IMG/VR virus record: IMGVR_UViG_3300044638_007692
Location: 1 to 64,000 of that record
From: an uncultured virus (IMG/VR IMGVR_UViG_3300044638_007692)
Lineage: Duplodnaviria > Heunggongvirae > Uroviricota > Caudoviricetes
Reading direction: 5' to 3' (one strand)
Length of the DNA stretch: 64,000 nucleotides
Part shown: positions 1 through 14,096 of the stretch, one piece after another
Layout of the letters: each line of letters begins with the position of its first letter
Position numbering within the stretch: the stretch's first letter is position 1
The notes under the pieces: generated by a model
What the model was told of the DNA's origin: nothing
The model's input: only the letters and a program-made list of their open reading frames with translations
Databases searched by the model: none
Position numbers and translations under genes: made by a program

Positions 1-3000
1 TGAATGGGCGTACGAAACTTCTGTCTTCGAAGTAGGACCAGACCAGTTCAACGACCTATCTAGCAAGGATGGCGAGAACACAGCAACTGGTTGGTTTACT
101 GGAGACCAAATCAACAAGATGTCTGATGCAGGAATGTTGCATCCAGACTTCGCAGACTCTTTCCCAAACATTGTTAGCAACCTTGAAGATGAGGATGCAA
201 AGACTGACAAGCCAATTCCAGCAGAAGAAGTTTCTCCTGAAGATGTAACTTCAGTATTTGATACTTCTAAGTGGAAGAAGGTTGCAGGACAAGCTGGCTC
301 CAATCAAGGTGCTTTCTATGTAGACCCAGACACTGGAAATCAGTATTACGTTAAGAAGCCAAAGTCTGACAAGCATGCAGAGAATGAAATCTTAGGCGGT
401 GCTCTTTATGAAGAGGCTGGCGTTAAGTTTGGTCGTGCATACAAGGGTGTAGACAAGAGTGGAAACACTGTTCTTGTTTCTCCAGTTTTAGATGGAAATA
501 CTCTTGCATCTGACAAGAACAATGCAGATTTAAAGAAGAAGGCTCAGGCTGACTTCGCAGTTGACGCATGGCTTGGTAACTACGATGTAGTTGGCCTTGA
601 GTATGACAACATGCTTGTTGACAAGGATGGAAACATCGCTCGTATTGATGCTGGTGGTTCTCTACTATTCCGTGCACAGGGTGGAACTGACAAGGAGTTT
701 GGTCCTGAAGCAACACAAGTTGACTCGATGCGTGATGCAAAGCAGAACGCACAGGCTGCAGACATCTTTGGAGATATGAGCGATGAAGAAATCGCTGAGT
801 CTGTTAAAAAGGTACAAGCAATAACTCCAGAAAAGATTGATGAGCTTGTAGATGCTGCCTTCTCTGACCCAGACACTGCTGAGTCAGTTAAAGAAACTCT
901 TAAGGCACGTCGTCAATATCTAATCGACCGTTTCTTGGGCGGACAAGCAGAAGAAACACCTGCCGAAGAGCCAAAGAAGCCAGTTGTTGATACCAATACA
1001 GTTGTTATTGATGCTGCAGGTGACATTGAAGCACAAATTACTGCTGCACAAGATGCTGGAAAGAAGATTGCGTTCAAGTACAACGGAAAAGAGAGAGTTG
1101 TAACTCCAAAGGGAGTGTGGAAGAACCCACAGAACGGCAACATTAATCTTTCAGCAATCGGTGAAGATGGTGTGAAGAAGAACTACACCCTCTCTAAGTT
1201 TGAGCAAAGTGATTCTTCTGCTACAGAAGCACCAGAGGCTGCTCCAACACCTGAGAAGGAACTTCCACAGGCACCAGAAGCTGCTCAGATTGATCCAGTT
1301 GAGAAACAAAAGGTTCTTGACGAAGTTTCAGCTCTTGCAGAAAAGCTTTTTGGTAGCAAGGGCAAGACAAAGGACCTACTTGAGTCTCTCAAGGGGCAGG
1401 AAGGCTCTAACGATGAGCTTATCGATTCAATTCTTGAGGACATCAACACTGTATCTGCTCCTGCAGATGCAACTCCTGAAGAAAAGATTCAGTCTGACCT
1501 TGCTCAAGCACTGACACCAGATGAAGATGCTGCTCCAGAAGATGAAGTGGAGCCAATCGATGCTGATGCACTTGCTGAAGAGTTAAAGAAGCCTTTAGAC
1601 CCAGATTTGATTTGGGCAAAGGTTAAAGATGAGAAGGGAATCTCTGTCATCGAAAACGGTGACATTGTTGTTGCTGAGAATGTAACACCTGCTGGCTCAA
1701 CTATTTATACAATGGTGAAGCGCAACTCTGACAACACCTTTAGTGTCTATCACAGAATTAAGGGTTCTGATGGAACTACAAGAGTTAAAACTCTTGCAGG
1801 ACGTTGGCACTCATACACAGCTCTTTCTAGCCGTATTGAGAACGAGAAGTGGAAAGCAAAGGTAACTCCAAGCAAGGTTATCTCAAAATCTAAGCCAGAA
1901 ACTCCAGGAACTATCGCTCCTTCTGCAATTCCAACAAAGAAGGGTGCTTATGTATCTGCTGATGGCAAGACTCCAATTAAGGTTGGAATGATTGTCAAAG
2001 ATACTAAGACTGGTAAGACTGGAAAGGTTGTTTCACTTAAGGATGAGCTTGTTACATCTAAGAGCAAATCAAATCCACAGGGTTACACCTACACAGACGT
2101 TGCCAAGGTTCAATGGGATGATGGCAAGAAGAACTGGAAGGTTTCAACCTATCTAGATATTCAGGACACTTCAGGTGTAAAGCCTGACAAGCCAGAAGAT
2201 GATGGCCCAACTGGTGGAAGTGGTGGAACACCAACAACTCCTAAAGAGCCAACAAGTCCTGCACCTGTAAACAATCCAGAACCTGCAGTTGAACTTCCAA
2301 CTTTTGAAGGTACTGACCTTGCTGGTGCTACTGCAATCAAAGATGTTGAATCTAAAGCAGTAGAAAAAAACTCTGTTGGTCACTTAGCTGCTTATGGAGC
2401 AAATGATTACAGCGATTACAAGAGTTTTTTAAGTGGCGAGTTTATTAAAGACCCAAACTCTAAGAACATGGTTCCAGGAATTTTGGTTCAAAACGTAAGC
2501 CCAAACGATTCTGACCAAGACTTGACTAGCTACGGTGTAATTTCAAAACAAGATGCAAAAAGTGGTGAAATTTTTGTTTCATACTTTGATGGACCTCTTG
2601 CAGGACAGACTAAGAGCACAAAGTCTGACAAGTTGTGGTCCCGTGAGAAGTTTATTACTCCTGAGCAAGCAAAAGAACTAGACATTACTCTTGACCCAAC
2701 ACTTTTTGACAAGTCTAAGGCTGCAGCAAAGGCTAAAGGCGAGGCTTATGCAAAGAAGCAAGCAGATGCTTTGAAGAAAGCTCAATTGGAAGCAGAAGCT
2801 AAAGCTCTAAAGGATAAGTTCTCTGTCAACGGTCCAGGTTTTGCTGTTCAAACACTAGATGCCGCACCTGACTATTCGCAATCTCCACATCCAGATGTGC
2901 CTTCACTAGAAGACTCGTTGAAGATGGCAAAGAATGACAATGCTGGAGAAGCTGCAAATGGTTCAACTACTCTTCTTGACTCAGATTCAATCGAGGACCT

Positions 3001-4201
3001 AGAAGTCCACGTTGGAATGGTTACAGACAAGAATGGCGAAAAGAAGATTCGTCTTCAGTTCACTTTAACTAACTGGGCTGGAAAGCAAATAGTTGCTAAA
3101 GCAGATTCTGACCCGAATGTAACTAAAACAAAAGCATTGCGTTTGGATAAGTGGGAGAAGAAGGCAGATGGTTCTCTCGTTTGGAAAGACACTTGGGATA
3201 CAAGCACAGTTGACTCAAATAAAAACGGTGTAACTTTTGAAGGACCTGCTGGAAAGGGAACTTTCCTTCTTCACAGAGCAAGTAAGTCTATTGATGATAC
3301 TGAAGTGGACTTCTTTAAGTACCACAGTAGTAGTCCATACGCTGTTTCCTTCCACAACAAAGCAGAAATCTATCTTCCAGCAGATGCAACTTCTGAGGAT
3401 GTAGCTGAGGCCCTTAACTCTTTGGGTGGAATCTCTCAAGTTCGTCCAGCACTTGAATCTGATGTTCAAGGTGTTATTGAAAACAAAATGATTTGGTTGC
3501 TTGGCTCTTCTACCGATGGAAAGAAGAACTACGCAGGTGAACTCCGTGAGAAGACCCTTGAGTACATTAAGGATGAATATGGATTCACAGCAGCTGATGT
3601 TGAAGTTGTCGTAGACCCACTTGCTCGTGGTCGAGTTAACTATTACATGCCAGAGTCCGCTGTAGAAAAGTTGATGGAAAAAACTGGATTCTCTCCATAC
3701 ATTGTTCACAATTGGAAGGGTGGAGACCAGACCAACACTGTTGACTGGTTTTACAACGTTGTTACATCAGGAGGCGTCTACGCAACTGCTACTCGTTGGA
3801 TGAACGGAATTAACAAGAGCGGAATGTCTTCATCTGCAGATATTGATGCTAACGGCGGAAACTATGTTTTTGCCTCTCCATCATCTAAAGGTTCAAGCAC
3901 TTCTACAAGCTTTGCTTTGTACTTCGATTCACGAAAAGTTCTTCGTCGTTTGGATTACTACAAGAACAACTCCGATAAGTATGGTCAGCTTCAATCTGAC
4001 TCAGAAGATATCGTTCAGTCTCTAAGCAACAACTACGGAGAGTTGATGTTTAAGAAGAACCTTTCATGGGCAGACATTTCATCCATGTCAATGCCAGCAG
4101 CTATCCGAGAGAAGCTCATCGAGCGTCTTATGACTGAAGGTCTTACTGATTTGGCAGACATGGTTTCTGGCAAAAAGAAAAAGAAAGGGGCTAAGAAATA
4201 A
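1..4201 (+). CDS. 5'-truncated giant multi-domain protein: C-terminal part of a Nudix domain, PI3K/PI4K/HipA-like kinase domain, WYL-like domain, SH3/KOW-like domain, C-terminal ADP-ribosyltransferase-like domain; probably head-associated
   Basis: Frame 2 is open from base 2 (EWAYETSVFEVGPDQFNDLSSKDGENTATGWFTGDQINK) into the tracked ORF at 119, so the gene starts upstream of the window. Motifs: W-x-Y-x-T...E...W...LHPDF (Nudix C-terminus); GSNQG...YYVK...ENE...DAWLGNYD...DN...RIDAG (kinase-like); IAFKYNGKERVVTP (WYL-like); YIVH...NYVF...GELMF (ART-like). Confidence 0.7.
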   Translation, partial: EWAYETSVFEVGPDQFNDLSSKDGENTATGWFTGDQINKMSDAGMLHPDFADSFPNIVSNLEDEDAKTDKPIPAEEVSPEDVTSVFDTSKWKKVAGQAGSNQGAFYVDPDTGNQYYVKKPKSDKHAENEILGGALYEEAGVKFGRAYKGVDKSGNTVLVSPVLDGNTLASDKNNADLKKKAQADFAVDAWLGNYDVVGLEYDNMLVDKDGNIARIDAGGSLLFRAQGGTDKEFGPEATQVDSMRDAKQNAQAADIFGDMSDEEIAESVKKVQAITPEKIDELVDAAFSDPDTAESVKETLKARRQYLIDRFLGGQAEETPAEEPKKPVVDTNTVVIDAAGDIEAQITAAQDAGKKIAFKYNGKERVVTPKGVWKNPQNGNINLSAIGEDGVKKNYTLSKFEQSDSSATEAPEAAPTPEKELPQAPEAAQIDPVEKQKVLDEVSALAEKLFGSKGKTKDLLESLKGQEGSNDELIDSILEDINTVSAPADATPEEKIQSDLAQALTPDEDAAPEDEVEPIDADALAEELKKPLDPDLIWAKVKDEKGISVIENGDIVVAENVTPAGSTIYTMVKRNSDNTFSVYHRIKGSDGTTRVKTLAGRWHSYTALSSRIENEKWKAKVTPSKVISKSKPETPGTIAPSAIPTKKGAYVSADGKTPIKVGMIVKDTKTGKTGKVVSLKDELVTSKSKSNPQGYTYTDVAKVQWDDGKKNWKVSTYLDIQDTSGVKPDKPEDDGPTGGSGGTPTTPKEPTSPAPVNNPEPAVELPTFEGTDLAGATAIKDVESKAVEKNSVGHLAAYGANDYSDYKSFLSGEFIKDPNSKNMVPGILVQNVSPNDSDQDLTSYGVISKQDAKSGEIFVSYFDGPLAGQTKSTKSDKLWSREKFITPEQAKELDITLDPTLFDKSKAAAKAKGEAYAKKQADALKKAQLEAEAKALKDKFSVNGPGFAVQTLDAAPDYSQSPHPDVPSLEDSLKMAKNDNAGEAANGSTTLLDSDSIEDLEVHVGMVTDKNGEKKIRLQFTLTNWAGKQIVAKADSDPNVTKTKALRLDKWEKKADGSLVWKDTWDTSTVDSNKNGVTFEGPAGKGTFLLHRASKSIDDTEVDFFKYHSSSPYAVSFHNKAEIYLPADATSEDVAEALNSLGGISQVRPALESDVQGVIENKMIWLLGSSTDGKKNYAGELREKTLEYIKDEYGFTAADVEVVVDPLARGRVNYYMPESAVEKLMEKTGFSPYIVHNWKGGDQTNTVDWFYNVVTSGGVYATATRWMNGINKSGMSSSADIDANGGNYVFASPSSKGSSTSTSFALYFDSRKVLRRLDYYKNNSDKYGQLQSDSEDIVQSLSNNYGELMFKKNLSWADISSMSMPAAIREKLIERLMTEGLTDLADMVSGKKKKKGAKK

Positions 4202-4806
4202 TGGCTCTTATCTCTGAAGAAGTAATTTTTGGGACTCCAGGTGTTATTGAAAAACTATCTGGAGAAAACCAAAGCAAATTCCCTCTATTCGATGTAGTTC
4301 AGTTTGTATATGAGGGAGACGACGATGAAGCCGATAGCGGCATCCTCGTTCGTGGAGGACGCGGCATGTTTTACCCAGTTGATCCAGAGTTAGTTAAGAA
4401 AACCGAGGGTACAATTGAGTTTGCTGCGTTCGACGGTACCTATCGAATCAGAAAGTTCACAGAGGATGACTCTGCGCTTCTAACTGGTTATGGACTGACT
4501 CTAACCCCGCAAATGATGGAGGAAATGATGGTAATCGACGAGCAAGTCGGTTTAGAACAAGCCGTAGAGGCTTTGTCTAACGATGCTGGTGACGTCACAG
4601 CTGTTGTCTTCACGGTTGCTGGGCTTGGTACTTTCTTCCGCAACGAGGGTAAGTGGGTTCCTGCCACTCCTGAGATGTCAGAAGAGTATGACGGCTCAGA
4701 AATCACAGACATTGATGTTGAAAAAGGAAAAGACCTCGTAGCCCGCTGGGACGCTGGTGAAAAAATTACTAAAGATAATTTAGCAGAGTACGCGGTAGAG
4801 GAATAA
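4201..4806 (+). CDS. hypothetical acidic protein in head-gene region
   Basis: 201-aa ORF, TAA/ATG overlap with the upstream gene, 2 nt from the next gene. Confidence 0.75.
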   Translation: MALISEEVIFGTPGVIEKLSGENQSKFPLFDVVQFVYEGDDDEADSGILVRGGRGMFYPVDPELVKKTEGTIEFAAFDGTYRIRKFTEDDSALLTGYGLTLTPQMMEEMMVIDEQVGLEQAVEALSNDAGDVTAVVFTVAGLGTFFRNEGKWVPATPEMSEEYDGSEITDIDVEKGKDLVARWDAGEKITKDNLAEYAVEE

Positions 4807-4808
4807 TC

Positions 4809-7800
4809 ATGGAATTTCTAGGTAGAAACGATAATTACGTTCTCTTCTCGAACGACGACTTGGCAACAGTTATTGACGAGTCTACTAATACAGTTGTTCG
4901 GGTTGATAGCAGTGCTGTTCTACTAGCTTCTGCAGAATGGAGTACTTATGGTGAAAGACCAGAAGCTTCTTCTGTTGAGTTAGCAAACGCTGCCGTTACT
5001 GACCTAGATATTAAAGTTCTTAGCAATGGTGATAGCAGCAATATGTACACCATTCCTGATGCTGTTGTTTCAGAAGCAAAAAGAGGACTCGCTTGGAGAA
5101 AAGAAGAAAAACGAGGTGGCACACCTGTTGGCCTGAATACTGCACGCACTCTGGCGCAGGGTGGGCAGATTGGTATCCAAAAGATTCGTCACATCGCGAA
5201 ATACTTCCCACGTCACGAAGTGGACAAGAAGGGCAAAGGCTACAAACCGGGCCAACAAAACTACCCAAGTAATGGTCGCATTGCATGGGCTCTTTGGGGT
5301 GGAGATGCTGCAAAGCGTTGGGCGTCAGCAATTGTTGAGCGCGACAATAAAAAGCGTGCAAACAATTCTGTAGTTGCATCTATCGATGAGTTTATGCCGA
5401 TAGAGCGTATTGATTACAAGTCATTTAATCCATCAGAGTACGAGCCAGATTTTTATATTCGAATTCGTTTAGATGGCTCAGGTATTGACCGTCTATACAA
5501 AGTAGATATGGAAGGTTACTGCACCGTTTGGGATGACGGCTGCTGGGAAGACCTTGGTCACATTGACCATGACTTTATTACATATGACAAGTCACTTGAC
5601 GATCCTTATGACCAAGTGCAAAAAATTCACACTCCTGTAGACCGTGAATCTGCAGTAAAGATTTCAGCGATGCTGGATAACAACCCATTTGATTCAATTT
5701 CTATTCAAATGATTGATTTCAATGAATCAGATTTGATTGAAAAAGCAATTCCAGAAATTGACTGGAAGTTCCTTGACCAGCTTTCTGAAGATGAAGTATT
5801 TGAAGTAGATGAGTGGGATGACGGCCTTCTTGCTGTAGGTGCTCCTACAACACAAGCTCCAACAAACCAAGATGGAAACTACACACCTGAAGAACGTTCA
5901 GAGAAGGCTTCTCAGCAAGTTCGTGACCAGCTAGGTAAATTTGCTAAAGCTGGAAGCACTGTGATTGTTGGAAACGACCCTAAGTACACAGGAAAAATTC
6001 TTTCTATCAACTCACAAACTCAAGAAGCAAACGTTGAGTTTCCTAATGGAAATGTCGTAGCAGTTCCAGCAAACCAAACTCAGTTGGCAGAAGATTATCA
6101 ACCTCTTCCTGTACAAGGCTTTCCAAGTTTTGAACTAGACACTTCTGGCATTCTTGGAGAACCACGAGTTCCAATTGATGAGCCAACAGCAAAACTTCCA
6201 GGACGTCTACCACCACTTACAGTAGACAGTCTTCAAACAATGCTTACTGACTGGTCTAGTTGGATGTCAGACCAAAGAGTTACTCCTGAATACACAGGAC
6301 AGCCAGTAAATGCTCCAGCACCAGTTGCTGGAACTTCACCTGCTGTAGATACACGTCTTGACCCAAATACTGTTCTTGGTCAGTACTACACAGGTTCATT
6401 TAATCCAGATGGCACACCAAAGCCAGGTTGGAATCCTGCTACAACAGAAAATGTTTACAACAACCCACTACTACGTGATTGGTTGGATAAAAAGTACAAC
6501 AAGAACGCATCTCCAGAAAATGCTTATCACCGAGATGGTTGGTATAAAGAAAATCCTTACGGAAAACTTGGACCTAAGGTAGAACCAAAGAAATCTGCTA
6601 AAGATGTAAGAAAAATTAGCGCAGAAGATTACATGAAGAGGTTTGATCCAGACCTTGAGATGTCAATTACCTCTTCTGCCGAGGCTAAAAAACCTAACTA
6701 TGAAATCACACCTGAAAAAACAGATGTGGCTCCTATGTACATTGCAATTGTCGCTGAGGATGACCCAGCAGCAGTGATGGAGTTAGTTGCTGTTGTTCCA
6801 GCAGGTTTCGATACAAATCAACCTTCTACTTTCAAACGCCGTGACCGTAAGTGGGTACGCGATGAAAGAATTCTTGCTGACCTAAACAGCCCAACACCTC
6901 CACCAACTATTGTTCTAAGCACAGAACAATTGGCTGAAGTTGTTTCTCAAATTGATGGTGGAATTGTTGCTTCAATTCGAATCAACCCTGCGATGGCTCT
7001 TACTCTTAACGCTATTACAGCTGCTGGAGGACTTGACCAAAACCGCGGTAACGCAGAGAAACTTCGCCGTTATTGGACAGTAGGTAAGGGTGGATTAAAG
7101 ATTCGTTGGAACAGCCCAGGAGACTGGACTCGTTGCCACAAGTATCTTTCAAAGTATCTTGGACCTCGCTCAAAAGGTTACTGCGCTCTTCGTCACAAAG
7201 AGATGACTGGCATGTGGCCTGGAGATAAGCGCAATCCAGGAATGAAAAAGAAGTCTATGGTTTCTAGCATTGAAGCCTTACGTTCTGAAGAACAAATTAT
7301 TGATTCATTTACTCTATCTGCTCGTGCTGAAGCAGCTAAGGCTCAATTCATGGGCCGTGAAGGTGCTAAACCAGTAGAACACGGAGCAAAATTTGTTATC
7401 CCATTGGTTATTCCTGAAGACAAGGAATCTGGCGATGGTCGCATCTTTGATAAAGGTGTAATAGTTATGCGAGACCTACCTCTGCCTCTACTGTGGCAGA
7501 TTAAAACAGGTCAAGGTCACGATGGTTCCGTTGTGGTTGGTCAAATCACGCATATGGAGCGCATCGATGGTGGAATTGGAAATGCTGTAGGCGTTTTCGA
7601 TACAGGCGAATATGGAAAAGAAGCTGAAAGGCTTGTTCGCAATGGGTTTATCCGTGGAGTATCTGCTGACATGGATATGTTTGAGGCTGATGAGGAAGAG
7701 GCTTCTGAGGACTCAGGAAAAGTAGAGGCAGGTAGAATAGTAATCAAGAATGCTCGAATTATGGCTGTCACCATTGTGCCAAAACCAGCATTCCAAGAGT

Positions 7801-8996
7801 GTTATATCCAAATCGTTGATGATGGCAACGAAGTTGAGGAGGAAGAAATGTCAGTTCCAGATGGTATTTATGTAGATGGGGTGAGCCCGCTTGATGCGTC
7901 AGCACTTGTTGCTTGTGGCATGGTAGCTGGTGCTATCCCTGTAGAGCCTCCTTCAGAATGGTTTGGAAATCCAAAGCTTGACAAGGCAACCCCACTTACC
8001 ATCACAGATGAGGGTCGCGTATTCGGTCACATTGCTGCTTGGCATGTAGACCACATTGGAATGGCATTTGGAACTCGTCCTCCACGTAGCCGTTCTAAGT
8101 ATTCATATTTCCACACTGGTGTAATTCGTACCGCTGAAGGTAAGGATATGCCAGTTGGTCAACTAACTTTGGCTGGCGGTCACGCTGGTCTAGAAGCTTC
8201 TGCTGAAGAAGCAGTTCGTCACTACGATGACACTGCATCAGCATTCGCAGACGTGCACGCAGGTGAAGATGCTTACGGAATTTGGGTTTCAGGTGCTCTA
8301 CGCCCTGGCACAACCCCCGAGCAAATTAGAGCCGCTCGTGCATCAGCTCCATCAGGTGACTGGCGACCAATCAAGGGACACCTTGAGTTGGTTGCTGTTT
8401 GCCAAGTAAACGTTCCAGGATTCCCAATCGCACGTGCTCGTGTCGCATCAGGTCAGGTTATGGCTCTTGTTGCTGCAGGTGCAAATGTACTTGCTCAGCT
8501 TAAGCATGACCCAATCGCTGAGATTAATTCAAAGATTGATGCCCTTGAAGCAATCCACAAGAGTGCAGAGGCTGCTGCTCTATCTGGAAAAATGGCTGAA
8601 TTTTCAGCTCGTGTAGCCAGTGCTAAAGCAGAAGCAGAGGCTGTTTCAGAGTACATGCTTCAAATGTTCGATGAGAATCCTGAAGCAGAGATGTCAGTTG
8701 TTACTCGCCGTGAGCGTCAAAAACTTGCTGAAGAGGGCAAGGCTCTTAAGGATGGTTCATTCCCAATCCGCAATGTAACCGACCTTCGTAATGCAATTCA
8801 AGCTTATGGACGTGCTAAGGCTGGAAAGCGTGGTCTTGTTCAAAAGCACATTATGAAGCGAGCAAAGGCTCTTGGTAAAGAGACTTTAATTCCACAAAAG
8901 TGGGCAGCTGCTTCTATTGATGTAGATAGCTTCCGAGAAAGAGCTATATCTGCTGCAGCAAAACTTCAAACTTCTGATAGTGAAATTAAGGACTAA
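4809..8996 (+). CDS. multi-domain capsid maturation (prohead) protease
   Basis: 1395 aa, two genes upstream of the major capsid gene. Protease-like domain ESGDGR...LPLPLLWQ...GHDG...GVSADMD...TIVPKPAF; second related domain PPSEWF...GRVFGHIA...SGDWR...VNVPGFP; N-terminal GRIAWALWGGDA domain; RYW...GDWTRC...GYCALRH domain; C-terminal DGSFPI...AIQAYGRA (DUF6582-like). Confidence 0.75.
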   Translation: MEFLGRNDNYVLFSNDDLATVIDESTNTVVRVDSSAVLLASAEWSTYGERPEASSVELANAAVTDLDIKVLSNGDSSNMYTIPDAVVSEAKRGLAWRKEEKRGGTPVGLNTARTLAQGGQIGIQKIRHIAKYFPRHEVDKKGKGYKPGQQNYPSNGRIAWALWGGDAAKRWASAIVERDNKKRANNSVVASIDEFMPIERIDYKSFNPSEYEPDFYIRIRLDGSGIDRLYKVDMEGYCTVWDDGCWEDLGHIDHDFITYDKSLDDPYDQVQKIHTPVDRESAVKISAMLDNNPFDSISIQMIDFNESDLIEKAIPEIDWKFLDQLSEDEVFEVDEWDDGLLAVGAPTTQAPTNQDGNYTPEERSEKASQQVRDQLGKFAKAGSTVIVGNDPKYTGKILSINSQTQEANVEFPNGNVVAVPANQTQLAEDYQPLPVQGFPSFELDTSGILGEPRVPIDEPTAKLPGRLPPLTVDSLQTMLTDWSSWMSDQRVTPEYTGQPVNAPAPVAGTSPAVDTRLDPNTVLGQYYTGSFNPDGTPKPGWNPATTENVYNNPLLRDWLDKKYNKNASPENAYHRDGWYKENPYGKLGPKVEPKKSAKDVRKISAEDYMKRFDPDLEMSITSSAEAKKPNYEITPEKTDVAPMYIAIVAEDDPAAVMELVAVVPAGFDTNQPSTFKRRDRKWVRDERILADLNSPTPPPTIVLSTEQLAEVVSQIDGGIVASIRINPAMALTLNAITAAGGLDQNRGNAEKLRRYWTVGKGGLKIRWNSPGDWTRCHKYLSKYLGPRSKGYCALRHKEMTGMWPGDKRNPGMKKKSMVSSIEALRSEEQIIDSFTLSARAEAAKAQFMGREGAKPVEHGAKFVIPLVIPEDKESGDGRIFDKGVIVMRDLPLPLLWQIKTGQGHDGSVVVGQITHMERIDGGIGNAVGVFDTGEYGKEAERLVRNGFIRGVSADMDMFEADEEEASEDSGKVEAGRIVIKNARIMAVTIVPKPAFQECYIQIVDDGNEVEEEEMSVPDGIYVDGVSPLDASALVACGMVAGAIPVEPPSEWFGNPKLDKATPLTITDEGRVFGHIAAWHVDHIGMAFGTRPPRSRSKYSYFHTGVIRTAEGKDMPVGQLTLAGGHAGLEASAEEAVRHYDDTASAFADVHAGEDAYGIWVSGALRPGTTPEQIRAARASAPSGDWRPIKGHLELVAVCQVNVPGFPIARARVASGQVMALVAAGANVLAQLKHDPIAEINSKIDALEAIHKSAEAAALSGKMAEFSARVASAKAEAEAVSEYMLQMFDENPEAEMSVVTRRERQKLAEEGKALKDGSFPIRNVTDLRNAIQAYGRAKAGKRGLVQKHIMKRAKALGKETLIPQKWAAASIDVDSFRERAISAAAKLQTSDSEIKD

Positions 8997-8998
8997 TA

Positions 8999-9721
8999 GT
9001 GACTACAAATAGTGACGATACAGCTTCTAAAATGAGAGAAGCCATTTCTACTGCTCAAGCGGTGTTGGCTTCTGCAGAGTCAAAAAATGATAATTCTGAA
9101 AAATCAGAAGCACTTTTTAAAATTGACCCAGAACTCGAGGGTTTAACTGACGAAGAGGTAAAAGCTCTTAAGCTGGAAAAAGCCACTCGAAATAAGGAAG
9201 AAGAAGAGCGGGCTAAATACACCCCAAAGACTCAACCTCGTGACGCTGGAGGTAAATTCCGTCAAGTCCTAGCTCGACTCAAATCTGACCTAGGTACTGC
9301 TGGGTTAGACCGAGTTATCGAAAAGGTTGAAGAAGCCGAAAATCTTGATAATGCGGGAGACTACGGAAAAGCATCCAAAGCAGCTGACGATTTAATTGGA
9401 ATTATTGACCGATTGGACGCAAAAGCGTTGAATCCTGAAGCTTTAGAGAACATTCGTACTAGTTCAGCAGAGCTTGGAAAGGTTATTGCTAACCTCCCAT
9501 TTGGGTTCGGTCAAGATGCTGAAAAGATTAGATTCTCTGATGTACCCCCAGCCCTACGTAAGCTAATGAAAAATATGATTACTAGGGTCGAAGACAAGAT
9601 TGGCGATGAGGATGCCGATATCGCCACAGCGGAGCTAAAGAAGTTCATGTCTGGTAGCGAGCTCTACAACCAATCAGAGATTTCCAGCCAGATGGCGAAG
9701 CTTTTAAGACTTTTAACATAA
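8999..9721 (+). CDS. hypothetical head-associated helical protein with QPRDAGGKF motif
   Basis: 240-aa ORF between protease and capsid genes; exact start uncertain (GTG 8999 or a downstream ATG). Confidence 0.65.
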   Translation: MTTNSDDTASKMREAISTAQAVLASAESKNDNSEKSEALFKIDPELEGLTDEEVKALKLEKATRNKEEEERAKYTPKTQPRDAGGKFRQVLARLKSDLGTAGLDRVIEKVEEAENLDNAGDYGKASKAADDLIGIIDRLDAKALNPEALENIRTSSAELGKVIANLPFGFGQDAEKIRFSDVPPALRKLMKNMITRVEDKIGDEDADIATAELKKFMSGSELYNQSEISSQMAKLLRLLT

Positions 9722-9892
9722 AGGACAGAAACACGGCGTTTTCCGTCCAATCACCTTTTATAAGTGGTTGTACCATTTATAACTAGGTGGAGTGCCTCCA
9801 CGCATTTATTGCGTTTCTCGGAGTCCCTCGGCCTCGACTAAATCAGCGATAGAACTATTGTTTTGTTCTACACAACTGCCCAAGGAGGGACA
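9722..9892 (+). promoter_or_regulatory. promoter and structured 5' leader of the major capsid gene
   Basis: Candidate -10 TACCAT 9771-9776; hairpins GTGGAG-tgc-CTCCAC (9787-9801), ACGCA-tttat-TGCGT (9800-9815), TAGAAC/GTTCTA (9850-9870); SD AAGGAGG 9882-9888. Confidence 0.55.
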
Positions 9893-11983
9893 GTGGACCG
9901 AATCACAGAAATGATGGATTCTCTGTCTGAACTCGACAGCGATAAGCTTGCCGATCTTCAACAGACAATCATCAGCGAATTCGAATCGGTTGAGAAATCA
10001 GACATCACTCCTGAGACAGTTGACGCTATGAAGTCGCTCGCCGACATGCTTGATTCAGTTCGCACTGAGCTAAAGCAGCGCGAAGCCGCAGTTCAGGAGC
10101 TCGCCCAGCGGGCCGCTGAGGCCGCGTCCCGTGTTTACGGCGACGACAAGAAGGAAGATGGCGAAATGCCAGAATCAGATGAAGCTAAAGAAGGAGACAC
10201 CGATATGGAAAAGTCTCCTGAAATGGCTGCACCTGTAATGGAAGAGGAAAAGAAGGAAGAAGCTCCAGCTCCTGCTGAAGAAGTTCCTGCTGCTCCTGCC
10301 GATTCCGCACCTGCAGCTGAAGAAGCACCTGTTGCTGAAACAGATGCAGAAAAAGAGAAGGAAGAGGAGAAAAAGCCAATGACCGAAGCGTCAACAGAGT
10401 CTGAGAAGACCGTCGAGCTCTCAACTGAGACAACCGAGACAGCTGAAGTAGCACCAGTTGCTACAGAGGCACAAGTAGTTACCGCATCAGCAGAAGAGGA
10501 AGCAGCACCTGCTGCAGAGGCTTCAGCAGATGTAGCAGAGGAAGCACCTGCTTCTGATGCAGATGCAGATGCAGCATCCGATGATGCAGCAGATGCAGCA
10601 GCCGATGTCGCCGATGGCGCAGAGGCTTCAATTCAAGAAACCCAAACAAATGAACCAGTTGTGGTTCAGGAAACTATGGAGGCACCCGTGACCGCCGCTG
10701 CAAATGCAGACGACCTCACACCAGAGGTCCCAGCGGACCGCCGTCCTGTAGCTCAGGTATCAGCCGCTCCCGTGGCAATCACGGCAGGTGCTGACATTCC
10801 TGGCCTAACAGCTGGCAGCCCGCTTTCAAGCATGGACGATGTAGCTGAAGCTTTTTCAAAGCGCATCCATGCTCTACGCCGTGTAAACGGCGGAGATGGA
10901 GAACAACACATTGTTGCATCCGTCTCTACCTCTTTCCCAGAAGAGCGCACTCTTTCAACAGATGCTGAAGCTAACTGGGCAAAGATCCAAAAAGTTGTCT
11001 CTCCAGAAGCCATTGTGGCTGCTGGTGGACACGTCGCACCATTCGAGGTTCGCTACGACATCTTCGGACTAGGAACTACAGCACGTCCAGTACGTGACGC
11101 ACTTCCTCGTTTCCAAGCTGACCGTGGTGGTATCCGCTACATCGTTCCACCAGTTCTAACTGACTATGCAAACGCTGTCGGTGTATGGACTGCAGCAAAC
11201 GATGCAGCAACCACTCCAAACCCTGCTGCTAAGGCAAGTTTGACAGTGGCAGCAGCATCTGAGACAACAGTCGCAACTGACGCTGTTACTCTACAGATGC
11301 AGTTCGGTAACCTTGCAACTCGTGCATATCCTGAGTTGATCGCTCGTCACAACGAGCTTGGTCTTATTCAGCACGCACGTGAGGCAGAGCAAAACCTTCT
11401 AGCGAAGATTGCAGCTGGTTCAACAGCTGTTACAACTTCTTCACTAATCGGTTTCGGTCGTGACTTCCTAGTACAGGTTGGTCGCGCAGCAACTGCTTAC
11501 CGTTCACGTCACCGTCTAGAAGCTGACGCATCACTTCGCATCATTATCCCAGCATGGGTTAAGGATGCAATGGCAGCTGACCTAGCACTAAACATGCCTG
11601 GTGATTCAACATTGAACGCTTACTCAGAGATCGACGGCTACCTAGCTGCTCGTGGCGTTGTCGTAAGCTACTCACTTGACCAAGATGTATTCGGCGCTCA
11701 GGGTGCAACAGCACTTGTTGAGTTCACCGATTCATTCACATGGTACCTATTCGCTGAAGGAACATTCTTGTTCCTAGATGGCGGAACTTTGGACCTTGGA
11801 ATCATCCGCGACTCATCTCTAGTCGGAACTAACGACTACAAGATGTTCGTAGAAACATTCGAAGGTGTTGCAAAGGTCGGTATCGAAGGTCTTGCAATCA
11901 CTTCAACCATCAGCATCAACGGTGTAGCAGCAGCTCTCCGTGATACAACTGGTGGCGCAACAGCTGCAGCAGTCGAATACTAA
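9893..11983 (+). CDS. major capsid protein with long acidic N-terminal scaffold-like region
   Basis: Strong SD AAGGAGG before GTG at 9893 (the ORF-track start at 9863 lacks an SD). Acidic Ala/Glu/Pro-rich N-terminus; C-terminal domain with RDALPRFQADRGGIRY and GGTLDLGIIRDSSLVGTNDYKMFVETFEG, typical of actinophage HK97-fold capsids. Confidence 0.85.
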   Translation: MDRITEMMDSLSELDSDKLADLQQTIISEFESVEKSDITPETVDAMKSLADMLDSVRTELKQREAAVQELAQRAAEAASRVYGDDKKEDGEMPESDEAKEGDTDMEKSPEMAAPVMEEEKKEEAPAPAEEVPAAPADSAPAAEEAPVAETDAEKEKEEEKKPMTEASTESEKTVELSTETTETAEVAPVATEAQVVTASAEEEAAPAAEASADVAEEAPASDADADAASDDAADAAADVADGAEASIQETQTNEPVVVQETMEAPVTAAANADDLTPEVPADRRPVAQVSAAPVAITAGADIPGLTAGSPLSSMDDVAEAFSKRIHALRRVNGGDGEQHIVASVSTSFPEERTLSTDAEANWAKIQKVVSPEAIVAAGGHVAPFEVRYDIFGLGTTARPVRDALPRFQADRGGIRYIVPPVLTDYANAVGVWTAANDAATTPNPAAKASLTVAAASETTVATDAVTLQMQFGNLATRAYPELIARHNELGLIQHAREAEQNLLAKIAAGSTAVTTSSLIGFGRDFLVQVGRAATAYRSRHRLEADASLRIIIPAWVKDAMAADLALNMPGDSTLNAYSEIDGYLAARGVVVSYSLDQDVFGAQGATALVEFTDSFTWYLFAEGTFLFLDGGTLDLGIIRDSSLVGTNDYKMFVETFEGVAKVGIEGLAITSTISINGVAAALRDTTGGATAAAVEY

Positions 11984-12035
11984 AATTCGATAAATAACAC
12001 GTAGGCAACGCTTAGGAACGAAGGAGTAAGAACAA

Positions 12036-12926
12036 ATGGCACCATTCAGAGGAGTTTTTCCAGCGAATGAGCTAGTTCCTGCCCCTTGCGGTCTCCTAAG
12101 CGTTGCCCGTGTTATGCAGCACACTGGGCGCGAAGGCGACGAGAGATGGGTTCGTCGTTTTTCACAAGAGTTTGATTCAATCCCATCATATTTGCGTCTT
12201 CTAACTGTAAACGACGAGACAATTACAGATGGTGAGCTTTTTGATGGCTCAGGCGAAGACAAGTACATTGACTACGTTCCATTTTACGTAGATGCAGAAC
12301 TTTTTGATTCAACATTTAGCCTTCCAGGTGAAGACCGCTTCGCACAAGTAACTAAGGTGCTTGAGGCAGTTACACAGAAGGCAGTAGAAAGAGAATTCTG
12401 GGAGGGCGTAGCAGCTCTTGAAGAGACATCTGCCTCTGGCAACATGTTCCTTCGTAAGAGTGGTGCTGCAACCGTTCCAGTTTCTGGCGCTAAAAAGCCA
12501 GAGAATGCACTAATGATTCTAGAGCAAGCTATTGCTGAATCACCTACTGGTGAGAATGCAGTTATTCACATGACTCGCGATGTAGCTTCAATTCTAGGCT
12601 CCCGTCTTATTTACAAGAAGGGCGACAACGAGAACTCAGGAAGTGCTATGACACGTCTTGGTACTCGTGTAGTCATTGGTTCAGGTTATACAGGTAACGG
12701 TCCAATTGGTGATGCTAATGCTGCCGCATCTGCTACCAACAAGTGGATTTATGCAACTGGAATGGTTGATGTTCACCTCGGCAAGGTCGAGATTGTGAAT
12801 GAAAACTTAGCCCAGGGTGCAGATGTTACAATTAATAACATGCGGATTAAGGCGTTTCGCCCTGCAGCTGCGTATGCAGATCCGTCAATTCATTACGCAA
12901 TGCGAGTGACACTTCCTAATGACTAA
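12036..12926 (+). CDS. putative minor capsid/decoration protein
   Basis: 296 aa directly after the MCP with SD AAGGAG; GLLSVA...LGTRVVIGSGY resembles post-MCP genes of actinophages. Confidence 0.55.
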   Translation: MAPFRGVFPANELVPAPCGLLSVARVMQHTGREGDERWVRRFSQEFDSIPSYLRLLTVNDETITDGELFDGSGEDKYIDYVPFYVDAELFDSTFSLPGEDRFAQVTKVLEAVTQKAVEREFWEGVAALEETSASGNMFLRKSGAATVPVSGAKKPENALMILEQAIAESPTGENAVIHMTRDVASILGSRLIYKKGDNENSGSAMTRLGTRVVIGSGYTGNGPIGDANAAASATNKWIYATGMVDVHLGKVEIVNENLAQGADVTINNMRIKAFRPAAAYADPSIHYAMRVTLPND

Positions 12927-12955
12927 GCCCAACAAAGAATAAGGAGCACACTGGA

Positions 12956-14002
12956 ATGGCTACACAGGACTACGCGGCTAGCGTCCAAGGTGTGGCGATC
13001 CGAGTCACTCGACTGGACGCCGCTGGTAACTTGCTCAATGGAGCAGGTGACTCTTACACCACCTCGGCGTTTCTTCGCGCATCATTCACCCCAGAATATG
13101 AAGAGGGTGACGAAATCGTTGAAAAGTCTGCTGATGGCACTGTATGTGTATCGTACAAGGCACCAGACACACTAAAGCGCATCACAATGGAGATCGCGAT
13201 TTGCGAACCAGACTCAGAGCTTTCAGCTCTTATGTCTGGCGGTCTACTTCTCCGCAAGAATTTTGGTTCTTACGCATCACCTGACAACAAGTCAGTCGGT
13301 TGGGCCGCACCAGCCGTTGGCGATGACCCAGCTGGTAACGGCGTGGCAATTGAAGTTTGGTCTTACGCAGTTAAGGATGGAAAGCGTGCAACTGGCCTTC
13401 CATACTTCTACTGGGTATTCCCATACTGCAAGCTTCGTCAATCAGGTGACCGCGTCATCGAAAATGGTTTGCTTGCAAACACATTCGAAGGATACGGTCT
13501 TGGAAACCCAGAGTTTAATGCTGGTCTAGATGGCCGCTGGGAGTTCCCAGTAGCAGCAGAGCGTCCATACTCATACGCTCGCGCATCATGGGCACCAGAA
13601 GGACTAAAGGGCTTCTACCGCTGGTTCGACTTGTCATCAAAGACAGTAACCAACAAGTCTCTAACTTCAAACGTTGCAACCCTTACAACAGGTTCAGCAC
13701 ACGGCTTTGAAGTTGGACAAACTGTTACTGTGGCAGATGTAGATTCCACATTCAATGGAACTCACACAATCACTGCAACACCAACAACAACTTCATTCCG
13801 CTTCGCTAAGACAGCTACAGATGTTTCATCTACAGCAGTTAGCCCAGCAGGTTCTGCAGTTCGTAACCGTGGTTACCTAGCAGTGTCTGACTTTGACGCT
13901 CAAGGTTCAGAGACTGGATACAACGTTCCAGGTTCTGATGCATACAACCCAGATCTACCAATCGACTTCATTATTGCGTCGACTGAGGATCCATCCGCCT
14001 AA
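12956..14002 (+). CDS. major tail (tube) protein with C-terminal E1-FCCH-like beta domain
   Basis: IRVTRLD...EEGDEI...CVSYKAPDTLKR...ICEPD...YFYWVFP tail-tube pattern; C-terminal VATLTTGSAHGF...FNGTHTIT module; SD AAGGAG. Confidence 0.8.
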   Translation: MATQDYAASVQGVAIRVTRLDAAGNLLNGAGDSYTTSAFLRASFTPEYEEGDEIVEKSADGTVCVSYKAPDTLKRITMEIAICEPDSELSALMSGGLLLRKNFGSYASPDNKSVGWAAPAVGDDPAGNGVAIEVWSYAVKDGKRATGLPYFYWVFPYCKLRQSGDRVIENGLLANTFEGYGLGNPEFNAGLDGRWEFPVAAERPYSYARASWAPEGLKGFYRWFDLSSKTVTNKSLTSNVATLTTGSAHGFEVGQTVTVADVDSTFNGTHTITATPTTTSFRFAKTATDVSSTAVSPAGSAVRNRGYLAVSDFDAQGSETGYNVPGSDAYNPDLPIDFIIASTEDPSA

Positions 14003-14017
14003 TAATAGTAGGATAAA

Positions 14018-14067
14018 GGGGCGGGCAGATGCCGTTTGTGTCTAACACTCGGTTCCCTGTCCGCCCC
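14018..14067 (+). terminator. GC-rich stem-loop after the tail tube gene (terminator or mRNA stabiliser)
   Basis: GGGGCGGGCAG (14018-14028) pairs with CTGTCCGCCCC (14057-14067) with one G-U; short inner stems CCG/CGG and GTGT/ACAC; only a weak U-tract follows. Confidence 0.65.
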
Positions 14068-14096
14068 TATTCACATCTGGAGAAGAAAGGGACGAA

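What the first reader, a model, noticed from the sequence alone, without database searches (positions are those of the whole stretch)
1..4201. Giant head-region protein combining Nudix, PI3K/HipA-like kinase, WYL-like and ART-like domains
Seen: the ORF is open from base 2, and its first ~55 codons match the C-terminus of actinobacterial MutT3-type Nudix hydrolases (WxYxT...E...W...LHPxF). Next come a kinase-like domain (~272-935; GSNQG loop, YVK Lys, ENE, DAWLGNYD catalytic loop, RIDAG), a WYL-like Sm/SH3 domain (~1058-1204), an SH3/KOW domain and a C-terminal domain with an H...Y...E layout. Acidic or Pro-rich linkers separate them. Established: 'polyvalent' MuF-type phage proteins and T4 Alt are packaged in heads and injected. 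Inference: this is an injected toolbox for host takeover or anti-defence, for example degrading nucleotide signals and phosphorylating or ADP-ribosylating host targets, possibly gated by a nucleic-acid-sensing WYL-like domain. I do not know of this combination being described.
Basis: partly seen in the sequence, partly recalled or inferred. Interest (0 to 1): 0.8.

Follow-up and report, generated by a model that had tools for sequence, protein, structure and literature searches.

The report
Tail end of giant phage effector protein
The window holds the last 1399 residues of a 3114-residue multi-enzyme protein encoded beside the head genes of a phage of actinobacteria, a known kind of "polyvalent" phage protein whose kinase-like and DNA-toxin-like parts belong to large families with no published description that I could find.

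Summary
The ORF at 2..4201 is real and is cut by the contig start. An identical contig (L002) gives the whole 3114-aa gene, which lies between the portal gene and the protease, scaffold and capsid genes of an actinophage related to DSL-LC01.

- **Nudix.** The first ~55 codons are the end of a RenU/MutT3-type Nudix domain (PDB 6uuf, E 6e-11). Its Nudix box is degenerate.
- **Kinase.** Residues 81-335 fold confidently (pLDDT 89) as an atypical kinase. The nearest structures are H. pylori CtkA (Z 15.8), CotH, PI4KII and HipA, and the catalytic residues are conserved.
- **WYL.** The WYL-like call holds by transitive homology.
- **C-terminal module.** The last 450 aa fold with pLDDT 84. Their second half is an ADP-ribosyltransferase fold nearest DarT (Z 8.0; the top 4-6 hits are all DarT), with near-invariant H, R, S, D and E.
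- **SH3.** This call stays weak.

The kinase-like domain occurs in at least 4674 protein clusters, mostly inside 1000-7000-aa proteins, alongside MuF, ART, Zeta toxin and Nudix domains.

Delivery into the host in the virion is inferred, not shown. This is a new variant of the known polyvalent-protein class.

The parts
2..4201 (+). C-terminal 1399 codons (residues 1716-3114) of a 3114-aa polyvalent protein gene. Stop TAA at 4199-4201. The 5' part is lost at the contig edge.
2..175 (+). C-terminal ~58 residues of a RenU/MutT3-type Nudix domain. The rest lies upstream, at residues ~1617-1772 of the full protein.
   Evidence: phmmer against PDB: 6uuf_A RenU, E 6.3e-11. The alignment runs through EWAYETS...LHPDFADSF. 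Pfam NUDIX scores 17.8 bits, below the cut-off of 21.1.
242..1006 (+). Atypical protein-kinase-like domain (P0001 residues 81-335). G-loop at G99-G103; Lys118; Glu129; D188/N193/D195/N203 loop; Asp216 of RIDAGG.
   Evidence: AF2 pLDDT 88.9, pTM 0.85. Foldseek: CtkA, E 2e-8. VIA: CtkA Z 15.8, CotH 13.7, PI4KIIa 13.4, HipA 11.9. Residue conservation in 168-177 of 177 domain copies.
1001..1204 (+). WYL-like small beta domain (P0001 residues 334-401).
   Evidence: BLASTP: 57% identity, E 7e-26, to P0131 residues 848-921. That region is one of four tandem repeats which Pfam scores as WYL (34.3 bits; cut-off 21.8). There is no direct Pfam hit on the window's own copy.
1604..1861 (+). Beta-rich domain of unknown family (P0001 ~535-620).
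   Evidence: Read from the translation. Found in 10 of 154 relatives. No family hit.
1949..2161 (+). Possible SH3-like barrel (P0001 ~650-720).
   Evidence: Only sub-threshold Pfam hits, all to SH3-fold families: DUF2098 E 0.008, MIB_HERC2, DUF3097_N, MSSS. Found in 19 of 154 relatives.
2339..2701 (+). Domain of unknown family (P0001 ~780-900), followed by a Lys/Ala-rich helical linker.
   Evidence: found in 11 of 154 relatives
2849..3439 (+). N-half of the conserved C-terminal module: an eight-strand alpha+beta domain whose fold assignment is undecided.
   Evidence: AF2 model. VIA hits at Z 4-5 only, to TTM/CYTH RNA triphosphatases, TBP and START. Conserved D44, E49, D50 in module numbering.
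3656..4171 (+). DarT-like ADP-ribosyltransferase-fold domain (module residues 270-441). Conserved His1236 (base 3707), Arg1265 (3794), Ser1276 (3827), Asp1280 (3839), Tyr1288 (3863), Glu1347 (4040).
   Evidence: VIA: 8baq DarT1, Z 8.0, rmsd 3.4, 146 aligned; ranks 1-4 and 1-6 are all DarT. Foldseek: DarT 7omv, prob 0.75. Conservation: H 75/78, R 78/78, S 78/78, D 78/78, Y 66/78, E 77/78. Sub-threshold Pfam DarT hit on the same strand in relative P0058.
4201..4806 (+). Downstream acidic 201-aa ORF whose ATG overlaps the giant gene's stop by one base. Function unknown.
   Evidence: An ORF of 206 aa sits at the same position in L012.

Best explanation
This is the C-terminal 45% of a 3114-aa 'polyvalent' effector protein of an actinobacteriophage.

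Shown:
- The full protein strings together a conserved ~260-aa N-terminal module, repeated small beta domains, a DEDD 3'-5' exonuclease and a RenU-type Nudix hydrolase.
- Inside the window it continues with a CtkA/HipA-like atypical kinase, a WYL-like domain, further small domains and a conserved 450-aa C-terminal module that ends in a DarT-like ADP-ribosyltransferase fold.
- The kinase and ART domains keep their catalytic-type residues across hundreds of diverged copies, so both are probably active enzymes.
- The gene sits between the portal gene and the protease, scaffold and capsid genes.

Inferred:
- The protein is made late, built into the head, and released into the host with the DNA.
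- There its parts act in parallel. The kinase phosphorylates host proteins. The ART transfers ADP-ribose from NAD+ to a host macromolecule, possibly DNA as DarT does. The Nudix and exonuclease parts destroy nucleotide-derived molecules or nucleic acids.
- The conserved N- and C-terminal modules form a chassis, and the middle is swappable cargo.
For: Gene order in the identical contig L002 is portal (phrog_776), a 493-aa protein, the giant ORF, a 201-aa ORF, a protease fusion, a 240-aa ORF, then the major head protein (phrog_777). The same order occurs in phage DSL-LC01, which has a 3289-aa homologue. In Gordonia phage Forza the portal gene is followed by a 734-aa protein with the kinase-like domain and then a 1017-aa ART.

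Domain evidence:
- RNase_T E 8e-12.
- RenU E 6e-11.
- Kinase fold Z 15.8 to CtkA.
- DarT-like fold Z 8.0, with all top ranks DarT.

Catalytic-type residues are conserved: kinase K118 in 168/177 copies, D188 177/177, N193 177/177, D216 168/177; ART R, S and D in 78/78, E 77/78, H 75/78.

Relatives of the kinase-like domain carry MuF, exoenzyme-type ART, Zeta toxin, RNase_T, WYL, KTSC, Nudix and UvrD. P0149 combines MuF, Zeta toxin, the kinase-like domain and the ART half.

A Yersinia phage protein that carries the kinase-like domain plus an ART is annotated 'phage particle associated' in its GenBank record.

Chassis: of 156 session proteins, the N-module occurs in 63, the C-module in 82, and both in 58. 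In 24 of 29 loci checked, the C-module ends within 32 aa of the stop.

The published framework for virion-packaged polyvalent proteins, ARTs and Nudix domains is in PMC5512222 and PMC9503650 (passages read).
Against: - There are no virion proteomics or expression data for this phage or any close relative.
- No MuF domain is present in this protein.
- The ART assignment rests on fold only. There is no Pfam DarT hit in the genome, no profile hit to any solved ART, Foldseek E is only 0.13, and Z 8 is what the tool calls middling.
- The kinase has no direct Pfam or PDB sequence hit.
- No Macro or NADAR reversal enzyme was found in four related records.
- The Nudix box is degenerate.
- The strict positional conservation of the C-module could reflect a structural or packaging role rather than catalysis.
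Confidence: 0.6

Rival explanations
1. The protein is a late-expressed cytoplasmic multi-enzyme that works in the producing cell and is not packaged. It might shut down the host, or modify or protect phage DNA before packaging. Its place among the head genes would then reflect only late timing.
For: No MuF or other recognised head-targeting domain is present. A DEDD exonuclease and a DNA-type ART could act on replicating DNA. At ~340 kDa it would be a bulky cargo.
Against: The position directly after the portal gene is conserved in DSL-LC01 and in Forza. Relatives of its domains are fused to MuF. One relative is annotated particle-associated. The N4 virion RNA polymerase of similar size is packaged and injected (PMC5512222, passage read).
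Confidence: 0.2
2. The conserved C-terminal 450-aa module is chiefly a structural or encapsidation/ejection module. Its ART-like half would be a non-catalytic scaffold or an NAD-independent binding domain, and only the middle domains would be effectors.
For: The module is nearly always the last domain (24 of 29 loci end within 32 aa of it). It pairs with a conserved N-module (58 proteins carry both). In N4 vRNAP the C-terminal region is required for encapsidation (PMC5512222, passage read). ART support is fold-level only.
Against: Polar residues of catalytic type (R, S, D, D, E, H) are invariant in 75-78 of 78 diverged members. The ART half also occurs alone at the ends of other giant proteins: P0149, P0058 and loci L064-L075. 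The Glu strand of P0058 matches the Pfam DarT profile at positions 152-188 (E 0.013, sub-threshold).
Confidence: 0.15
3. The kinase-like domain is a small-molecule or lipid kinase, or a pseudokinase, rather than a protein kinase.
For: The close structural neighbours include the lipid kinases PI4KIIa (Z 13.4) and MavQ (Z 13.1) as well as protein kinases. No substrate information exists.
Against: The best match, CtkA, and also CotH, HipA and HipT are described as protein kinases in their PDB titles and, from my recall, in the literature. Full conservation of the Lys, Glu, Asp, Asn, Asp set argues against a pseudokinase.
Confidence: 0.25

Closest known systems
Polyvalent proteins of phages and conjugative elements (Iyer, Burroughs, Anand, de Souza, Aravind 2017, PMC5512222; passages read)
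   Same: One giant polypeptide encoded by a phage that carries many effector-type domains (ART, kinase, Nudix, nuclease). It lies next to head genes. Relatives are fused to MuF and Zeta toxin.
   Different: This protein has no MuF, ArdC-N or zincin peptidase. The kinase that paper describes is another type: a Ser/Thr/Tyr-type kinase lacking the C-lobe, with His and Asp, found in Verrucomicrobia and Bacteroidetes. 'HipA' does not occur in its main text. Its supplementary files were not seen and might list this domain.
Helicobacter pylori CtkA and the HipA / CotH / PI4K-II group of atypical kinases
   Same: Same fold (CtkA Z 15.8, rmsd 3.2 over 204 residues; HipA Z 11.9). The order of motifs matches: glycine loop, Lys, Glu, Asp/Asn loop, Asp-x-Gly. 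CtkA is also carried by a mobile element, the tfs4 ICE (search listing).
   Different: There is no sequence-level match: no Pfam HipA_C, HipA_2 or CotH hit on this copy and no profile hit to PDB. Only relatives P0007, P0009 and P0149 touch the HipA models weakly. The domain is embedded in giant proteins rather than standing alone.
DarT, the DNA ADP-ribosyltransferase toxin of DarTG (PDB 8baq, 7omv, 7yk3; PMC11543638, passages read)
   Same: It is the best structural match of module residues 270-441. Both have a His, Arg, Ser/Tyr, Glu series in the same order, and both belong to the H-Y-E (ARTD) class by residue pattern.
   Different: It does not match the Pfam DarT model. It is fused to the end of a phage giant protein, preceded by a 270-aa module of unknown role. 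No DarG, Macro or NADAR partner was found. The target is unknown.
RenU / MutT3-type Nudix hydrolases of actinobacteria (PDB 6uuf)
   Same: Sequence homology over ~150 residues (E 6.3e-11), including the piece in the window.
   Different: It is a domain of a phage protein. The Nudix box has a 3-residue insertion and lacks the Arg at its canonical place. It scores below the Pfam NUDIX cut-off.
T4 Alt and N4 virion RNA polymerase (packaged, injected phage enzymes)
   Same: The proposed mode of action is the same: an enzyme carried in the head and delivered with the DNA (described in PMC5512222 and PMC9503650, passages read).
   Different: No sequence or domain relationship was tested or found, and packaging has not been shown here.

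Membership tests
Polyvalent proteins (Iyer et al. 2017) | Two to fifteen effector-type domains in one polypeptide of a phage or plasmid | tested here: met
   The full protein has a DEDD exonuclease, Nudix, kinase-like, WYL-like and ART-like domains. The context is a phage head module.
Polyvalent proteins (Iyer et al. 2017) | Delivered into the recipient cell with the invading DNA (virion-packaged) | not testable with these tools
   Only context is available, plus the GenBank note 'phage particle associated' on a Yersinia phage protein that shares the kinase-like domain.
MuF-led head proteins (Pfam PF04233) | N-terminal Phage_Mu_F domain | tested here: not met
   No hit in the 3114-aa protein at E<=1. 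MuF is present in relatives P0009, P0011 and P0149.
Nudix superfamily (PF00293) | Match to the family model above its cut-off | tested here: inconclusive
   Pfam gives 17.8 bits against a cut-off of 21.1, but phmmer to the solved Nudix hydrolase RenU gives E 6.3e-11.
Nudix superfamily (PF00293) | Nudix box GX5EX7REUXEEXGU | tested here: not met
   A regex finds no strict box. EFMEEVG is present at residue 1691 of the full protein, after a 3-residue insertion. Relatives P0130, P0122, P0065 and P0110 show the canonical box in the same alignment block.
HipA-like kinases (PF07804, PF20613) | Match to the family model | tested here: not met
   No hit on the window's domain at E<=5. There are weak hits in relatives: P0007 HipA_C 1.7e-18 summed over copies, P0009 HipA_2 4.7e-6, P0149 HipA_C 0.034.
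Protein-kinase-like fold (CtkA/HipA/PI4K-II group) | Bilobal kinase fold with nucleotide-binding Lys/Glu and catalytic Asp/Asn/Asp | tested here: met
   pLDDT 88.9. CtkA Z 15.8, with 79 chains at Z>=8. Residues conserved in 168-177 of 177 copies.
WYL domain (PF13280) | Match to the family model | tested here: inconclusive
   The window copy has no direct hit. It is 57% identical to repeats of P0131 that together score 34.3 bits, although no single repeat passes on its own.
DarT (PF14487) | Match to the family model | tested here: not met
   No match in the genome at E<=10. There is a sub-threshold hit (15.7 bits, cut-off 22.5) in relative P0058 at the homologous Glu strand.
ADP-ribosyltransferase fold, H-Y-E (ARTD) class | ART beta-sandwich core | tested here: met
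   VIA ranks 1-4 are DarT (Z 8.0, 6.4, 5.8, 5.5). Also listed are Tpt1 4.7, SopF 4.4, CopC 4.1 and OspC3 4.1. A second look gives DarT at ranks 1-6. The Z values are middling by the tool's own note.
ADP-ribosyltransferase fold, H-Y-E (ARTD) class | His, Tyr and Glu lining the NAD+ pocket | tested here: inconclusive
   H1236 (75/78), Y1288 (66/78) and E1347 (77/78) are conserved, in the right order, and each on a predicted strand.

The most novel reading that the evidence does not exclude
Actinophages of this lineage, and many uncultured phages, carry a standard giant-protein chassis: a conserved N-module, swappable cargo, and a C-terminal module ending in a DarT-like enzyme. On this reading the chassis delivers a DNA-targeting ADP-ribosyltransferase into the host together with a CtkA/HipA-like kinase. 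The phage would then use offensively the same chemistry that bacteria use defensively in DarTG, halting host DNA replication by base ADP-ribosylation. The kinase-like domain (at least 4674 clusters at 50% identity, no Pfam model matched) would be one of the commonest unrecognised phage effector enzymes.
Probability: 0.25. Interest if true: 0.8.

Novelty: new variant of a known kind. Interest (0 to 1): 0.6.

Why it matters
Polyvalent virion proteins are thought to be a phage's first strike against the host, yet most of their domains are unassigned.

This work gives two large domain families a fold and a testable active site. Neither matched any Pfam model:
- an atypical kinase found in thousands of giant phage proteins;
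- a DarT-like ADP-ribosyltransferase module that closes a whole family of 2000-7000-aa proteins.

If the ART acts on DNA, it would show a phage using a known bacterial anti-phage toxin chemistry in the opposite direction.

The RenU-type Nudix and the exonuclease are candidates for destroying NAD-derived or nucleotide immune signals.

Cultured relatives make these ideas testable: Gordonia phage Forza gp78 and gp80, and the Yersinia and Pseudomonas phage proteins.

Tried and rejected
- **Direct family scans.** Pfam and PHROGs on the 1399-aa piece gave 0 families. phmmer against PDB gave only noise (actin-family, E 0.4).
- **Nucleotide search.** megablast of bases 1-8000 against 50,697 phage records found no match.
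- **Homologue searches.** I used the search for related loci instead.
- **Profiles against PDB sequences.** Neither profile found CtkA or DarT. A1 hit only a surface-layer protein (E 0.26). A3 hit only NSE2 and GDPD at E~0.15.
- **Foldseek on the C-module.** Nothing at E<=1e-3 in PDB or in BFVD (best were uncharacterised Tupanvirus and Pithovirus proteins at E~0.01).
- **ESM Atlas.** No usable hit for the WYL-like piece. For the C-module there were only sub-0.9 leads, whose named neighbours were three ART clusters (a DarT/PARP cluster, OspC, Arr) plus a DUF5846 cluster.
- **Cellular genomes.** A scan of 185,579 species' genomes with the single pattern derived from A3 found no relative of the C-module. 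This is limited to that one pattern and is not proof of absence.
- **Reversal enzymes.** Macro and NADAR were found in 0 of 4 related records.
- **Downstream ORF.** The 201-aa ORF has no PDB, Pfam or PHROG hit.
- **TTM/CYTH reading of the C-module's N-half.** I considered this because of hits to mimivirus, Cet1, YgiF and CYTH enzymes at Z 3-5 and an ExExK-like string. I did not adopt it: only D44, E49 and D50 are conserved there, and the basic position is not.
- **Complex prediction.** I considered modelling the portal with the N-module but did not run it. Gene neighbourhood was the only reason, and a negative result would say nothing.
- **Literature.** 'fHe-Yen8-01' returned 0 papers, so the 'particle associated' note rests on the GenBank record alone.

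Full report
**1. What is in the sequence**

The + strand is open from base 2 to a TAA at 4199-4201, giving 1399 codons. The window is bases 1-64000 of a 78,633-base IMG/VR viral record rated 59% complete. The ORF is therefore cut by the contig start.

A scan of viral contigs found 12 loci encoding relatives at 59-100% identity. L002 and L003 are 100% identical over all 1399 residues. In L002 the complete ORF runs 4856-14200 and encodes 3114 aa. A 59%-identical relative, L012, has 3155 aa. The window holds residues 1716-3114. Minus-strand ORFs inside the region (the longest is 164 aa at 3215-3709) overlap this conserved gene, and I treat them as spurious.

**2. Context**

The order in L002 is:
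- portal (phrog_776, E 3e-108);
- a 493-aa DUF5824 protein;
- the giant ORF;
- a 201-aa acidic ORF whose ATG overlaps the stop;
- a 1395-aa protein with a prohead-protease-like C-terminal part;
- a 240-aa ORF;
- the major head protein (phrog_777);
- major tail protein, adaptor, tape measure and so on.

The window also encodes a WhiB-like regulator. Its head protein is 72.6% identical to that of Actinomycetia phage DSL-LC01 and is related to those of Microbacterium, Gordonia, Arthrobacter and Mycobacterium phages. This is an actinophage. DSL-LC01 has a 3289-aa 'hypothetical protein' in the same position, with the kinase-like domain at 1663-1898 and the C-module at 2586-3057. The paper on DSL-LC01 (PMC10611076; I read only the passages that contain the phage name) predicts an Actinomycetia host and, in those passages, does not discuss this gene.

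**3. Nudix**

Pfam sees only a DEDD/RNase_T exonuclease in the full protein (residues 1176-1340, E 8e-12).

- Scanned alone, residues ~1560-1790 give NUDIX at 17.8 bits, under the 21.1 cut-off.
- phmmer against solved structures finds the Nudix hydrolase RenU (6uuf_A) at E 6.3e-11 over ~150 residues. The alignment runs through the window's first ~55 codons.
- The strict box GX5EX7REUXEE is absent (regex).
- The protein has GGAHKDQTIAKAPNATAKEEFMEEVGG. This keeps the E-U-x-E-E-x-G core but has a three-residue insertion and no Arg at the canonical spot.
- More distant relatives aligned in the same block do carry the canonical box.

**4. Kinase-like domain**

Neither Pfam nor PHROGs recognises residues 81-335. 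An exhaustive HMMER search of 1.84 billion cluster representatives found 4674 proteins at E<=1e-3, 3558 at <=1e-10 and 712 at <=1e-30. Of the 150 best, 131 are >=1000 aa and 90 are >=2000 aa (median 2486, maximum 7004). Some carry 2-5 copies.

*Fold.* With a 12-sequence alignment (A1), AlphaFold2 gave pLDDT 88.9 and pTM 0.85.
- Foldseek's best matches are the seven chains of H. pylori CtkA (E 2e-8 to 6e-7, TM 0.50-0.57), then ordinary protein kinases, PI4KIII-beta and LepB.
- The Foldseek-independent aligner gives CtkA Z 15.8 (204 residues, rmsd 3.2), CotH 13.7, PI4KII-alpha 13.4, MavQ 13.1, HipA 11.9, HipT 10.9, Fam20 and actin-fragmin kinase.

*Residues.* Across 177 domain copies from 152 proteins plus the query:

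| Residue | Conserved in |
|---|---|
| G99 | 168/177 |
| K118 | 168/177 |
| E129 | 172/177 |
| D188 | 177/177 |
| N193 | 177/177 |
| D195 | 169/177 |
| N203 | 174/177 |
| D216 | 168/177 |

That is the glycine loop, Lys, Glu, catalytic loop, Asp-x-Gly-Gly series of an active kinase.

*Sequence-level links are weak.* Relatives touch the HipA models (HipA_C in P0007 and P0149, HipA_2 in P0007 and P0009) and, in P0007, APH. A profile of A1 does not find CtkA in PDB.

*Literature.* The kinase described for polyvalent proteins in PMC5512222 is a different one, judged from the passages read.

**5. WYL-like and small domains**

Residues 334-401 align at 57% identity (E 7e-26) to residues 848-921 of P0131, and more weakly to three neighbouring repeats there. 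Pfam scores that repeat block as WYL at 34.3 bits (cut-off 21.8), although no single repeat passes alone. The window's own copy has no direct hit, so the call is transitive.

The putative SH3/KOW barrel (residues ~650-720) has only sub-threshold hits, all to SH3-fold families (E 0.008-0.5). Two further domains (~535-620 and ~780-900) remain unassigned.

**6. C-terminal module**

The last 450 residues had only four homologues among proteins of similar length. A pattern scan with alignment A2 found 59 viral loci.

*Position.* Of the 29 loci I examined, the frame is open upstream to the start of the locus in 28 and for 890 aa in the other. The module ends within 32 aa of the stop in 24 of 29. The other five have 48-386 aa more.

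*Fold.* With 24 sequences (A3), AlphaFold2 gave pLDDT 84.1 and pTM 0.87.
- Foldseek found nothing at E<=1e-3. DarT (7omv) was rank 2, with E 0.13 and prob 0.75.
- The all-against-all aligner put four DarT entries first: 8baq Z 8.0 (146 residues, rmsd 3.4, model 270-441), 7omu 6.4, 7omv 5.8 and 7yk3 5.5. Tpt1 (4.7), SopF (4.4), CopC (4.1) and OspC3 (4.1) are also listed.
- The second look placed six DarT entries first.
- The tool warns that Z near 8 is middling. What counts here is that the top of the list is one family and that other ARTs follow.

*Independent hints agree.*
- Three of the four nearest named ESM-Atlas clusters are ART clusters (one DarT/PARP, one OspC, one Arr). The scores are 0.81-0.83, so these are leads only.
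- In relative P0058 the Pfam DarT model matches positions 152-188 (E 0.013, under the cut-off). This falls exactly on the strand that aligns with the module's conserved Glu.

*Residues.* Across 78 diverged members (module numbering in brackets):

| Residue | Conserved in |
|---|---|
| H1236 (287) | 75/78 |
| R1265 (316) | 78/78 |
| G1269 (320) | 78/78 |
| S1276 (327) | 78/78 |
| D1280 (331) | 78/78 |
| Y1288 (339) | 66/78 |
| D1325 (376) | 78/78 |
| G1328 (379) | 78/78 |
| E1347 (398) | 77/78 |

His, Tyr and Glu each sit on predicted strands, in H-Y-E order. DarT is an ARTD/H-Y-E enzyme with an essential Arg and Glu (PMC11543638, passages read).

*Against.* There is no Pfam DarT hit in this genome, no profile hit to any solved ART, and I could not measure residue geometry.

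*Independence of the ART half.* It also occurs alone at the ends of other giant proteins: P0149, P0058 and loci L064-L075.

*N-half.* Module residues 1-197 are an eight-strand alpha+beta domain with only Z 4-5 matches, to TTM/CYTH triphosphatases, TBP and START. I leave it undecided.

**7. Family architecture**

Among 156 session proteins (the 150 best kinase hits plus P0001-P0006), the N-terminal ~260-aa module of the full protein occurs in 63, the C-module in 82, and both in 58. The middle segments are each shared by only 2-33 of 154. This looks like a fixed chassis with variable cargo.

Relatives of the kinase-like domain carry Phage_Mu_F, exoenzyme-type ART, Zeta toxin, RNase_T, WYL, KTSC, NUDIX and UvrD. 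P0149 has MuF, Zeta toxin, the kinase-like domain and the ART half. P0058 adds a tyrosine phosphatase, SH2 and Nudix.

In cultured phages:
- The kinase-like domain sits in Yersinia phage fHe-Yen8-01 gp129 (2146 aa, with a C-terminal exoenzyme ART). Its GenBank note reads 'phage particle associated protein'.
- It sits in Pseudomonas phage Dolphis gp117.
- It sits in Gordonia phage Forza gp78, directly after the portal gene and two genes before a separate 1017-aa ART.

No paper on fHe-Yen8-01 is in the library.

**8. Mechanism**

*Shown:* the domain folds, the conserved catalytic-type residues, the head-module position and the polyvalent architecture.

*Inferred from the published framework* (PMC5512222, PMC9503650; passages read): late synthesis, incorporation into the head, and release into the host with the DNA. 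The kinase, ART, Nudix and exonuclease would then act on host targets or immune signals. The WYL-like domain might bind a ligand or nucleic acid, but nothing tests a gating role.

No Macro or NADAR gene was found in four related records, two of them rated complete. A scan of cellular genomes with one pattern found no C-module.

**9. Novelty**

The class is known. I did not find the particular kinase family, the DarT-like terminal module or the N/C chassis described. Searches returned nothing relevant. 'HipA' has 0 occurrences in the main text of PMC5512222, whose supplementary files I did not see. I rate this a new variant of a known kind.

Noticed in passing
window 4809-8996 (+): A 1395-aa protein whose C-terminal ~440 residues resemble prohead proteases (Pfam S78 E 0.0019, under the cut-off; phrog_859 and phrog_18402). 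It has an ~850-aa N-terminal extension of unknown role. DSL-LC01 splits this region into three 'capsid maturation protease' genes.
   Followed up: partly
window 4201-4806 (+): An acidic 201-aa ORF whose start overlaps the giant gene's stop by one base. It has no Pfam, PHROG or PDB match. An ORF of 206 aa sits at the same place in L012. It could be a partner or chaperone of the giant protein.
   Followed up: partly
L002:4856-5635 (outside the window): The N-terminal ~260 aa of the full protein, including an Arg-rich 'RRDRKGRF'-type stretch, recur at the N-termini of 63 of 156 proteins examined. Several more match only the short Arg-rich stretch. This is a candidate head-incorporation signal.
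   Followed up: partly
L010/L024 and L035 (IMG/VR record 3300047564_003843, 160.7 kb): One record rated complete holds two different C-terminal modules, 88% and 43% identical to the window's, about 130 kb apart. These are either two paralogous giant genes or a chimeric assembly of two phages.
   Followed up: no
window 37103-40228: A WhiB-like regulator (+), then on the minus strand a tryptophan-halogenase-like gene and a glycosyltransferase. The DSL-LC01 paper also names WhiB and a tryptophan-halogenase homologue.
   Followed up: no
window 41478-63862 (-): A long minus-strand block of collagen-like and tail-fibre-like ORFs with repeated modules, plus 2034-aa and 894-aa virion structural proteins.
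   Followed up: no
P0007 (3416 aa), P0058 (3130 aa): Relatives show extreme cargo. P0007 has five copies of the kinase-like domain plus an ART. P0058 combines a tyrosine phosphatase, an SH2 domain, Nudix and the DarT-like end.
   Followed up: partly
L077 (Gordonia phage Forza 33038-38570): A split arrangement: the portal gene is followed by a 734-aa kinase-like protein and a separate 1017-aa exoenzyme-type ART. The same functions are fused in other phages.
   Followed up: partly
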